The notes under the pieces: model-generated
What the model was told of the DNA's origin: nothing
Databases searched by the model: none
What the model saw: the letters and a program-made list of their open reading frames with translations, nothing else
Origin: the human T2T-CHM13v2.0 reference genome, Homo sapiens
Reading direction: 5' to 3' (one strand)
Assembly (NCBI RefSeq): GCF_009914755.1
Contig: NC_060931.1
Length of the DNA: 64,000 nucleotides
Part shown: positions 32,081 through 40,117 of the stretch, in pieces
Position numbering within the stretch: position 1 is the stretch's first letter
Layout of the letters: each line of letters opens with the position of its first letter
Program-made: the position numbers and the translations under genes

Positions 32081-34306
32081 ACACGTAGTATGGTTGTATA
32101 TAATTTATTTAACTAGCCCCATAGATTATTTCAATTATTTCCAAACATTGTATAGCTAAAAGACATAGTTATTAATATATAATTCCACACAAGTGTAAGG
32201 ATAAATTTCTAGAAATGGAATTTTCAGGTAAAAGAAATTTGCATTTGCAAGATTGATAGATCCTACCAGATTTCTTTCCTTAGAAAATATACTGGCTTAC
32301 TCTTTTATCTACAGTATACTTATGTTTTCACATTCTTGCAAACACAGTGTTATCTTAATTTTTTTTGCAGTATAACAAAAGGATTTGTTATCTTAAAAAA
32401 TATTAACTTTGACATGCTTGTTAGACATGGAGATGTCTGGTAAGCACTTATAAATAAGTTCCAGGAGCTCAGGAAGAAAGTTAGACTTGCAGATATAAAT
32501 GTGGTTGTATATAGATAGTAATGAAAACCATAGGACCAGATGAGGTCACCCAGCACCTGAGTATAGTTAGAGAAGAGGGTACCTGGACCTGCAGTGGCTT
32601 CTTTCATAGACTTCAGCGAGCAAGTCCTTGGTCCTTTTATGAGCTAATTGTGTTTCATTGATTTGGTGTTTATCTATGTGCCAAAAACACATGTTTCATT
32701 TATTATAAATTCATTACGTCTTTCTGTAGGGTTTGCCCACCTGTGATGTTTGTATGTTGATAAGAAATACCCAATCAATAGAGATAATTTGATAAGAAAG
32801 AAGAAAAAGGGAATAGTTGCAGGATTAAAGTTCATGAGTAGATGAGAGAGGGTGGGATCCATTACCTTTGCCAGTGCAAGGATTGACTCTAGGTAGCGGA
32901 GGTGTTCATTTCTTAGATGAGAAAGAGGAACATTTGAGCACAGATTTCTCTTATATTTCGTTTATCTATTTTGATAGAATTACATTGAATTTATACATTA
33001 ATTTGAAAGAAATTAATGTAATTAGTACATTGTATCTATTCATCCATGAACAAGGTATACCTCTAATCTGTTTTTTCTTATCTTATTGCACTTGCCATAA
33101 GACTTGGCATAAAAGACTGCCAATGTATTTTACTGGACTTTATTGGAGATATTTGATGGAGATATACTCAATAAGTATGTTTTTCAGAGATTTCAGGTTA
33201 GGGAAGTTCCTTCTATTCTTGCTAAAACATTTTTTTAAAGTTAATTTTTTTAAACAGCTTTAATGAAGTGTAATTTACATATCACAAAATTTGCCCACTG
33301 TAAATGTACAATTCAGTGATTCTTAATACCTTTATAGAATTGTACTGGCATCACCACCAGCTAGACTTAGAATATTTTCATTTCCCAGCAAGTTCCCTCA
33401 TGCTGTTTGCGTAAAACATTTTTCTGATTGTGAGTTAATGTTGAATTGTTTTTCTGCATTAAAATGAAAATAAAAGAAAAAATGCTTTTCAAGCAACAAC
33501 TTTTCTCATATACTAGAAACTAAAAATAAGAGTCGACTTGATAATTCTAAAAATAGCATGGGAAAATGTAAACTCATTATGGCAGGGAGGACAGCAAGCC
33601 ATTCACGAGGGATCCAACCTGATGGCCCAAACACCTCCTACTAGGCCCCAACTTTAACGATGGGATCACATTTCAATATGAGATTTAGAGGGGACAAACA
33701 TCCAAACCATAACAATACCCAATAGAAAGTTAAATGTTAAATAATAGGGAAGATAATGAGCATCTTTTCCCTCCGCTCTCTGTTAAGGGAGATGTGCCTA
33801 GTGTTTCTGCATTATGTAGGATGCTGGTTTTGGACTGAGGTATATACACATTTCCATGTGAAGGAAGTATCTATTGATTCCTATTTTATTAATGTACTTA
33901 CCAGGACTAAATGTTGATTTTGTGGGCTTTTGTTGGCATTTGATCTTTTCTATACCTATTAAAAATAAACATATGATATTTTTCTTCTTAGATCTTGAAA
34001 GGTGAATTACACATGCAGATTTCTCATTATAGAGCCATCCTTGCATTCCTGGAATATATCCTATATAGTCATGATTTCTCTTTTTTTATCTTTCTTTTTT
34101 TTATTATACTTAAAGTTCTAGGGTACACGTGCACAACGTGCAGGTTTGTTACTTATGTATACATCTGCCATGTTGGTGTGCTGCACCCATTAACTCGTCA
34201 TTTACATTAGGTATATCTCCTAATGCTATCCCTTCCCCCTCCCCCGACTCCACGACAGGCCCTGGTGTGTGATGTTCCCCTTCCTGTGTCCAAGTGTTCT
34301 TATTGT

Positions 34307-38131
<3,825 letters not shown>

Positions 38132-38194
38132 TATGATGTTAGCTGGTTATTTTGCTCGTTAGTTGATGCAGTTTCTTCCTAGCCTTGATGGTCT

Positions 38195-39210
38195 TTACAA
38201 TTTGGCATGTTTTTGCAGTGGCTGGTACCAGTTGTTCCTTTCCATGTTTAGTGCTTCCTTCAGGAGCTCTTCTAGGGCAGGCCTGGTGGTGACAAAATCT
38301 CTCAGCATTTGCTTGTCTGTACAGTATTTTATTTCTCCTTCACTTATGAAGCTTAGTTTGGCTGGATATGAAATTCTGGGTTGAAAATTCTTTTCTTTAA
38401 GAATGTTGAATATTGGCCCCCACTCTCTTCTGGCTTGTAGAGTTTCTGCTGAGAGATCTGCTGTTAGTCTGATGGGCTTCCCTTTGTGGGTAACCCGACC
38501 TTTCTCTCTGGCTGCCCTTAACATTTTTTCCTTCATTTCAATTTTGGTGAATCTGACAATTATGTGTCTTGGAGTTGCTCTTCTCGAGGAGTATCTTTGT
38601 GGCATTCTCTGTATTTCCTGAATTTGAATGTTGGCCTGCCTTGCTAGATTGGGGAAGTTCTCCTGGATAATATCCTGCAGAGTGTTTTCCAACTTGGTTC
38701 CATTCTCCCCATCACTTTCAGGTACACCAATCAGACGTAGATTTGGTCTTTTCACATAGTCCCATATTTCTTGGAGGCTTTTTTCATTTCTTTTTACTTT
38801 TTTTTCTCTAAACTTCTCTTCTTGCTTCATTTCATTCATTTGATCTTCCATCACTGATACCCTTTCTTCCAGTTGATCAAGTTGGCTACTGAAGCTTGTG
38901 CGTTCATCACGTGGTTCTCTTGCCATGGTTTTCAGCTCCATCAGGTCATTTAAGGACTTCTCTACGCTGGTTATTCTAGTTAGCCATTCGTCTAATCTTT
39001 TTTCAAGGTTTTTAGCTTCTTTGCGATGGGTTCAAACTTCCTCCTTTAGCTCGGAGAAGTTTGATCATCTGAAGCCTTCTTCTCTCAACTCGTCAAAGTC
39101 ATTCTCCAACCAGCTTTGTTCCATCGCTGGCAGGGAGCTGTGTTCCTTTGGAGGGGGAGAGGTGCTCGATTTTTAGAATTTTCAGCTTTTCTGCTCTGTT
39201 TTTTCCCCAT
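38195..39210 (-). pseudogene. L1 ORF1p remnant
   Basis: ATG at 39210; the intact C-terminal 248 aa contain YVKRPNLRLIGVPE...ARREWG...YPAKLS; the N-terminus is disrupted. Confidence 0.93.
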
Positions 39211-40117
39211 CTTTGTGGTTTTATCTACCTTTGGTCTTTGATGATGGTGACGTACAGATGGGGTTTTGGTGTGGATGTCCTTTCTCTTGGTTCGTTTTCC
39301 TTCTAACAGTCAGGATCCTCAGCTGCAGGTCTGCTGGAGTTTGCTAAAGGTCCACTCCAGACCCTGTTTGCCTGGGTATCAGCAGTGGAGGCTGCAAAAC
39401 AGCGAATATTGGTGAACAGCAAATGTTGCTGCCTGATAGTTCCTCTGGTAGCTTCATCTCAGAGGGGTACTGGCCATGTGAGGTGTTAGTCTGCCCCTAC
39501 TGGAGGGTGCCTCGCAGTTAGGCTACTCGGGATTCAGGGATCCACTTGAGGAGGCAGTCTGTCTGTTCTCAGATCTCAAACTCCGTGCTGGGAGAATGAC
39601 TACTCTCTTCAAAGCTCAGTTGGAAATGCAGAAATCACCCTCTTCTGTGTCGCTCACGCTGGGAGCTGTAGACTGGAGCTGTTCCTATTCGGCCATCTTG
39701 GAACCACCCCCCAGTCATGATTTCTTAATATTAGGAATGTCATTGATTTTTTGCCATTATTTTATTTTAGATTTTTACATTGATAGCTGTAGATGAGATT
39801 GGTCTGTAGAATTTTGTTTTGGTTCAATCTTTAGGAGAATGAAATATCAAAGGTACATGCAATTCTTAAAGAATTTGTGAGTTTTCTTCCTTTTTCTGTT
39901 GTGCTCTAAAATAATTTAATAGGCATTAGGATAATGTATTTTTATAGATTTCTCCGTGAAATCATTTAGGCCTAATGTTTTGAGGGATATAACTTTTAAA
40001 TAATTTTTTCTATTTCTTTTCTGGAAATTAATATTAACTTTTTCTCAATGTAGTATATCTCTTTTGGTATTCAATTCTCCCAATATTACGTTCTCTTTTG
40101 TTAAATAAACAAGTGTA

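What the first reader, a model, noticed from the sequence alone, without database searches (positions are those of the whole stretch)
39560..39712. L1 integrated from a spliced RNA (SpIRE97/622-type junction)
Seen: on the L1 sense (minus) strand the 5'UTR reads ...gatttctgcatttccaactgag|ctttgaagagagt..., with the junction between 39615 and 39614, 98 nt from the 5' end. The element has both ends and a TSD, yet is only 5.63 kb. Established: the L1PA 5'UTR has a donor (CTGAG|GTACCGG, ~nt 97) and an acceptor (GACAG|CTTTGAAG, ~nt 622), and their joining defines SpIRE97/622 (Larson et al. 2018). Inference: the ~0.52-kb GT-AG intron, holding most of the CpG-rich internal promoter and the antisense promoter/ORF0 region, was spliced out before reverse transcription, so this copy was promoter-crippled on arrival.
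Basis: partly seen in the sequence, partly recalled or inferred. Interest (0 to 1): 0.8.

Follow-up and report, generated by a model that had tools for sequence, protein, structure and literature searches.

The report
Known spliced L1 copy, SpIRE97/622-69
This is an old, dead L1 retrotransposon that was copied into the genome from an RNA whose 5' leader had been spliced, and this exact copy is already catalogued in a 2018 paper, so the finding is correct but ordinary.

Summary
On the minus strand an L1 runs from 39712 to 34080 (5,633 nt), flanked by a perfect 13-nt target-site duplication. Its 5'UTR reads ...CCAACTGAG|CTTTGAAGAGAG..., with the junction between 39615 and 39614, 98 nt from the 5' end.

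In 28 unspliced L1 relatives from the same genome, the segment missing here is a median 525 nt long. It starts GT in 26 of 28 and ends AG in 24 of 28, behind a pyrimidine-rich tract. The 30-nt junction occurs at 192 places in this genome, against 0 for the reversed control. A private later deletion is therefore very unlikely.

The element is already published. Larson et al. 2018 (PMC5860796), S1 Data and S1 Table, list it as SpIRE(97/622)-69: L1PA5, hg38 chr7:153116956, TSD 13, with the same flanks. Both ORFs are now broken.

SpIRE copies do not cluster in a tree, so repeated independent splicing fits best.

One side result: the published list of 116 looks incomplete for older copies. Five junction-bearing loci tested by flank sequence are all absent from it.

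Novelty: already known. Interest: low.

The parts
39713..39725 (-). 5' target-site duplication (agaaatcatgact on the L1 sense strand)
   Evidence: family D10, 13 nt, 100% identical to 34067-34079. Larson S1 Table gives TSD 13.
39615..39712 (-). 5'UTR exon 1: the L1 5' end up to the splice donor, 98 nt, ending ...CCAACTGAG
   Evidence: Matches the first 98 nt of unspliced copies at 95-99% identity, after which those copies continue with GTACCGGGTT. Larson's table counts one 5' untemplated base.
39614..39615 (-). Exon-exon junction (donor nt 97 joined to acceptor nt 622 in L1.3 numbering)
   Evidence: The junction word occurs at 192 places in the genome against 0 in the reversed control.
39211..39614 (-). 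Rest of the 5'UTR, from the acceptor (CTTTGAAGAGAG...) to the base before the ORF1 ATG
   Evidence: Aligns as one block (q97/99-502) to unspliced copies downstream of their ...TCCCTGTCTGACAG acceptor.
39339..39472 (-). About 130-nt segment retained here but absent from a younger-type copy (L036); most likely the 129-bp ZNF93-target segment of L1PA3 and older
   Evidence: L036 aligns q97-240 and q375-502 with adjacent subject positions. Larson places the 129-bp segment downstream of nt 622. Equating the two is inference.
38195..39210 (-). ORF1 remnant: ATG at 39210, a stop about 41 codons later, and the domain-bearing part in another frame
   Evidence: open stretches 39085-39309 and 38195-39031. 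Tnp_22_trimer, Transposase_22 and Tnp_22_dsRBD, E 3e-23 to 2e-62.
34307..38146 (-). ORF2 remnant, broken into at least seven open stretches in different frames (endonuclease and reverse transcriptase pieces)
   Evidence: Exo_endo_phos_2 E 2e-06; RVT_1 E 5e-10 and 1e-14.
34080..34306 (-). 3'UTR end with AATAAA and a degenerate A-rich tail (about 34080-34103)
   Evidence: Larson S1 Table comments 'Degenerate 3' poly(A) tail'.
34067..34079 (-). 3' target-site duplication
   Evidence: family D10.

Best explanation
A full-length L1PA5 RNA was spliced inside its 5'UTR. The donor was G98U99 (CTGAG|GTACCGG) and the acceptor A620G621 (GACAG|CTTTGAAG), which removed about 525 nt. The spliced RNA still encoded ORF1p and ORF2p. 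It was reverse-transcribed and inserted by ordinary target-primed reverse transcription at a T-rich site, producing a 13-nt target-site duplication and a poly(A) tail. The result is a 5.63-kb 'full-length-looking' L1 that lacks most of its internal promoter: a spliced integrated retrotransposed element of class SpIRE97/622. It has since decayed, with both ORFs broken, and it lies in intergenic DNA. Shown here: the anatomy, the GT..AG boundaries in relatives, the recurrence of the junction, and identity with the published element. Inferred: that splicing happened in the very RNA that made this copy, and that the copy had a weak promoter on arrival.
For: Anatomy. Boundaries: in 28 unspliced relatives, the segment missing here is a median 525 nt (493-545). 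It is GT..AG in 22 of 28, starts GT in 26 of 28 and ends AG in 24 of 28, with TCCCTGTCTGACAG before the acceptor. Recurrence: 40 of 40 scored matches to the 153-nt stretch span the junction. The 30-nt junction word gives 192 matches against 0 for the reversed control. Nine other junction-bearing loci begin at the L1 5' end behind unrelated flanks. Published identity: S1 Data prints 'Clone 69; PA5; SpIRE(97/622)-69, chr7:153116956-153122711' with the same flanks, TSD and 5'UTR. S1 Table gives 5,621 bp, TSD 13, no transduction, 1 untemplated 5' base and no gene. No sign of a SpIRE lineage: over about 3.4 kb the window copy is 93.8% identical to SpIRE-96, within the 93.5-94.5% it shows to ten unspliced copies. 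The two SpIREs share 3 exclusive variants, where other pairs share 1-4. In a 45-row tree the 9 SpIRE rows need 9 changes of label, against a shuffled mean of 8.3, and the nearest rows to the window are unspliced. Promoter loss: Larson's assays, read in sections 9 and 14.
Against: Exon 1 ends in AG and so does the intron. The breakpoint can therefore be placed in three registers, and this one copy alone cannot exclude a 2-nt-microhomology deletion (HSPs overlap at q97-98). The tree has little resolution (35 of 42 inner branches open), and its rows were picked by similarity to the window copy, so a SpIRE parent is not excluded. No ape orthologue could be examined. Larson's promoter and retrotransposition assays used an L1.3 (L1PA1) backbone, not an L1PA5. 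They also did not detect the 97/622 splice by RT-PCR in HeLa cells (Discussion).
Confidence: 0.94

Rival explanations
1. This copy is the daughter of an already intron-less SpIRE that was transcribed from a neighbouring host promoter. The splice then happened one or more generations earlier, not in the RNA that made this copy.
For: A 2025 bioRxiv preprint (10.1101/2025.02.02.635956, passages only) reports that a SpIRE in RAP1GDS1 acted as a source element by co-opting the gene's promoter. Larson's Discussion allows this in principle. In its first 502 nt the window copy is closest to another SpIRE (L002, 92.7%, against at most 91.3% for the other eight junction-bearing loci and at most about 91.2% over the acceptor-side block (q97-502) of unspliced copies).
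Against: Over about 3.4 kb the two SpIREs are no closer than SpIRE to unspliced copies, and they share no excess of exclusive variants. SpIRE rows are maximally scattered in the tree, 9 changes for 9 rows. All ten of the best-matching whole bodies fetched are unspliced copies.
Confidence: 0.04
2. An intact L1PA5 inserted here and later lost about 525 bp through a genomic deletion, or the reverse transcriptase jumped on its template, at the 2-nt AG microhomology.
For: A 2-nt AG repeat at both breakpoints is compatible with microhomology-mediated joining.
Against: The same junction, base for base, occurs at 192 places against 0 in the control, at sites with unrelated flanks. It coincides with a GT...polypyrimidine-AG intron. 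Independent deletions would not repeat this.
Confidence: 0.02

Closest known systems
SpIRE97/622 (Larson et al. 2018, PLoS Biol 16:e2003067, PMC5860796); specifically entry SpIRE(97/622)-69
   Same: Same locus, flanks, TSD length, subfamily call (L1PA5) and junction. It is the same element in a different assembly.
   Different: By eye, the window differs from the hg38 sequence printed in S1 Data at two bases within the first ~350 nt shown (about 39648 and 39449). My reading of the element is 5,633 nt between the repeat copies, against their 5,621. My reading of the nick site is TTCT/T, against their TCTT/T.
SpIRE97/790, SpIRE97/853 and SpIRE97/976 (same paper; first described by Belancio and colleagues, as cited there)
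   Same: They use the same donor G98U99 and the same route: spliced L1 RNA, then target-primed reverse transcription.
   Different: They use acceptors further downstream. SpIRE97/853 uses an acceptor inside the 129-bp segment that this copy retains, and SpIRE97/976 cuts into ORF1. This copy uses the nt-622 acceptor.
Processed pseudogenes
   Same: An intron-less cDNA copy of a spliced RNA polymerase II transcript, inserted by the L1 machinery with a TSD and a poly(A) tail.
   Different: Here the template is L1's own RNA, mobilised in cis, and the 'intron' is part of the element's own promoter.

Membership tests
SpIRE97/622 | L1 of the L1PA1-L1PA6 group with its true 5' end present | tested here: met
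   the element starts ggggggtggttccaagatggccgaatagg at 39712; exon 1 is 95-99% identical to the 5' ends of other L1 copies. The L1PA5 label is Larson's; I did not assign the subfamily myself.
SpIRE97/622 | Exact joining of ...CTGAG (nt 97) to CTTTGAAG... (nt 622) | tested here: met
   and (one unbroken alignment with nine other junction-bearing loci; a split alignment with unspliced ones).
SpIRE97/622 | The missing segment is a GT...AG intron in unspliced elements | tested here: met
   22 of 28 GT..AG, median 525 nt. The 6 exceptions are single-base changes in old copies.
SpIRE97/622 | Hallmarks of target-primed reverse transcription: TSD, poly(A) tail, T-rich nick site | tested here: met
   13-nt TSD; AATAAA and an A-rich tail. 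The nick site, read, is a degenerate variant of TTTT/A.
SpIRE97/622 | Present in the published catalogue | tested here: met
   entry 69.
SpIRE97/622 | Weak promoter compared with an unspliced 5'UTR | not testable with these tools
   Only Larson's L1.3-based assays are available.
SpIRE97/622 | The junction was present at insertion: orthologues in other apes carry it | not testable with these tools
   No ape genome is held; the genome search reaches only the window's own assembly.

The most novel reading that the evidence does not exclude
The element itself is not new. The boldest reading my data allow concerns the catalogue. The published census of 116 SpIRE97/622 substantially under-counts old (L1PA4-6-type, 'CCAACTGAG') copies. 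This assembly holds 192 junction-bearing places, and roughly a third of the 100 listed are absent from the published table. If so, splicing-then-retrotransposition was about as frequent in L1PA4-6 as in L1PA3, rather than peaking in L1PA3.
Probability: 0.6. Interest if true: 0.25.

Novelty: already known. Interest (0 to 1): 0.08.

Why it matters
For this locus it matters little. It is a fixed, intergenic, decayed L1 that the literature already lists by name. It is a clean textbook example of how splicing of L1 RNA produces copies that look full-length but lack a promoter. The only added value is a hint that the published list misses older copies, which would change the per-subfamily frequencies of this class.

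Tried and rejected
1. SpIRE lineage. I asked whether this copy and the most similar SpIRE (SpIRE-96, chr12) are mother and daughter or sisters. I rejected this: body identity and shared exclusive variants are the same as for unspliced copies, and SpIREs do not cluster in the tree. Two rows, L004 and L036, were dropped from that tree because their alignment was under 700 nt. L001 and L011 (the window itself) and L041 (the same place as L002) were left out.

2. My first recollection was that the 129-bp ZNF93 segment lies inside the intron, which would make the intron about 650 nt. That was wrong. Larson places it downstream of nt 622, and the window retains it (gap in L036).

3. Ape orthologues: no tool holds them.

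5. Later literature. A search for 'SpIRE97' and 'SpIREs' from 2018 on returned only Larson 2018 and its companion primer among relevant papers. Two citing papers were read as passages only. I found no later census in the held library.

Full report
**1. What is there**

Read on the minus strand, an L1 begins at 39712 with ggggggtggttccaagatggccgaatagg.

The ORF1 ATG is at 39210. The element ends with AATAAA and a degenerate A-rich tail at about 34103-34080.

A perfect 13-nt direct repeat (agaaatcatgact in the L1 sense) lies at 39713-39725 and 34067-34079 (family D10). The element between the two copies is 5,633 nt.

Pfam finds the three L1 ORF1p domains, an endonuclease piece and two reverse-transcriptase pieces in the expected order. 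The reading frames are broken. ORF1 meets a stop about 41 codons after its ATG and continues in another frame. ORF2 is split into at least seven open stretches. The hub's annotation shows no gene here, and Larson's table lists none.

**2. Is the missing piece an intron?**

The window's own assembly can be searched. Using exon 1 (98 nt) as query I fetched 30 loci: the window itself and 29 other copies.

Of those 29, 28 gave a split alignment to the window's 502-nt 5'UTR. One block ends at base 98 and the second begins at base 97-104. The remaining locus, L026, matched exon 1 only.

In those 28 the intervening segment is a median 525 nt long (range 493-545). It starts GT in 26 and ends AG in 24, and has both in 22. 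It is preceded by ...CAACTGAG and ends ...TCCCTGTCTGACAG, directly before CTTTGAAGAGAG. The six exceptions are single-base changes in old copies.

One caveat remains. Both exon 1 and the intron end in AG, so the breakpoint can be drawn in three registers, of which GT..AG is one. The single copy on its own therefore cannot exclude a 2-nt-microhomology deletion.

**3. Recurrence**

- All 40 of 40 scored matches to the 153-nt stretch (39 elsewhere plus the window itself) span the junction at 91-95% identity.
- The 30-nt junction word, with up to 3 mismatches, occurs 192 times in the assembly. The same word read backwards occurs 0 times. Forty-three matches are exact.
- Nine other junction-bearing loci each begin at the L1 5' end behind flanks unrelated to each other.

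Independent deletions would not reproduce one junction base for base at so many insertion sites. Splicing of L1 RNA before reverse transcription does.

**4. Already in print**

Larson et al. 2018 (PMC5860796) define SpIRE97/622 as L1s derived from an RNA spliced G98U99/A620G621. I read sections 7, 8, 9, 14, 16, 17 and 21, S1 Table in full, and passages of S1 Data. I did not see the figures or S1 Fig.

They report 116 such elements in hg38, spanning L1PA1 to L1PA6, with TSDs, poly(A) tails and endonuclease-type sites.

Their S1 Data prints 'Clone 69; PA5; SpIRE(97/622)-69: Filled site spans chr7:153116956-153122711'. The empty-site and filled-site sequences match the window's flanks, repeat and 5'UTR.

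S1 Table gives 5,621 bp, nick site TCTT/T, TSD 13, no transduction, one untemplated 5' base and a degenerate poly(A) tail. The finding is thus a rediscovery of a catalogued element.

There are small differences. My span between the repeat copies is 5,633 nt. From I read the nick site as TTCT/T. By eye, the window differs from the printed hg38 sequence at two bases, near 39648 and 39449.

**5. How it worked**

*Shown.* The anatomy of a target-primed reverse transcription event made from an RNA lacking nt 98-621.

*From the literature.* The 97/622 deletion removes five known transcription-factor sites. It lowers luciferase activity from about 267-fold to about 7-fold over a promoter-less vector. 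It lowers retrotransposition to about 7% when no CMV promoter helps, but to only about 70% when one does. A spliced RNA can therefore make one jump in cis, and the product is poorly transcribed.

These assays used L1.3, not an L1PA5. The authors did not detect the 97/622 splice by RT-PCR in HeLa cells.

*Inferred.* This copy was promoter-poor on arrival.

The 129-bp segment bound by ZNF93 lies downstream of nt 622. It appears to be retained here at about 39339-39472, because a younger-type copy (L036) lacks exactly that stretch in the alignment.

That the intron holds the antisense promoter and ORF0 is my recollection of their positions. Larson's introduction only says that the 5'UTR carries them.

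**6. One splice or many?**

A preprint (10.1101/2025.02.02.635956, passages only) reports a SpIRE that became a source element by using a host promoter. I therefore asked whether the window copy descends from another SpIRE.

- In the first 502 nt its best match is SpIRE-96 on chr12 (92.7%).
- Over about 3.4 kb it is 93.8% identical to SpIRE-96, against 93.5-94.5% to ten unspliced copies. The two SpIREs share 3 exclusive variants, and other pairs share 1-4.
- The ten best whole-body matches I fetched, taken from the 40 scored, are all unspliced.
- I built a tree of 45 rows (9 SpIRE, 36 unspliced) on 907 columns that exclude the probe region. The SpIRE label needs 9 changes, the maximum; the shuffled mean is 8.3, and all 500 of 500 shuffles are as low.
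- The window's end branch (0.058) is typical of the set (median 0.055).

The tree is poorly resolved (35 of 42 inner branches open), and its rows were chosen by similarity to the window. This is absence of evidence for a SpIRE lineage, not proof against one.

**7. Side result: the catalogue**

I compared the 100 places listed with the 116 hg38 starts in S1 Table. The match was by chromosome and approximate coordinate, by eye, without a lift-over.

About 64 correspond to published entries and about 36 do not. Nearly all the unmatched ones are the older 'CCAACTGAG' type: about 18 of the 43 exact matches and about 18 of the 57 one-mismatch rows. Two unmatched rows look like paralogous copies of the listed SRGAP2B element.

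As a sequence check, I searched S1 Data for flank strings of five unmatched loci (L003, L005, L006, L009, L010). None of the 5 is present, while the control L002 (SpIRE-96) is found. Long runs in that file were cut when stored, but the flanks are printed. Exact strings could also miss because of allelic differences.

Four of the five (L003, L005, L006, L009) fall in the one strongly supported clade of the tree, apart from the window copy. That fits a detection bias against older subfamilies, because the published probe was designed on L1.3.

**8. Verdict**

The element is already known by name. Interest is low.

Noticed in passing
whole assembly; loci L003, L005, L006, L009, L010: The 97/622 junction word occurs at 192 places in this assembly, against 116 published for hg38. 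About 36 of the 100 listed places have no counterpart in Larson's S1 Table by approximate coordinate, mostly the older 'CCAACTGAG' type. Flanks of five such loci are absent from S1 Data (0 of 5; the control was found).
   Followed up: partly
window about 39648 and 39449 (minus strand): Two single-base differences between this assembly and the hg38 sequence of the same element printed in Larson's S1 Data: A here for G in a CpG, and A here for T. They were seen by eye in the first ~350 nt shown and are probably allelic.
   Followed up: no
window 39339-39472 (minus strand): The spliced copy keeps the ~130-nt segment that younger L1 copies (L036) lack. This is most likely the ZNF93-binding 129-bp segment, so the copy lost its promoter but kept a KRAB zinc-finger target.
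   Followed up: partly
G000:C1:121324187, C1:144089973, C1:205597413: Three one-mismatch junction matches on chromosome 1 lie where I recall the SRGAP2 paralogues to be. Larson lists only the SRGAP2B copy (SpIRE97/622-6). The other two may be the same insertion carried along by segmental duplication.
   Followed up: no
L042 (G000:C4:115614000-115618700): This otherwise unspliced close relative has only about 306 nt between exon 1 and the acceptor-side block. It carries a different, partial internal deletion of the 5'UTR that is not at the splice sites.
   Followed up: no
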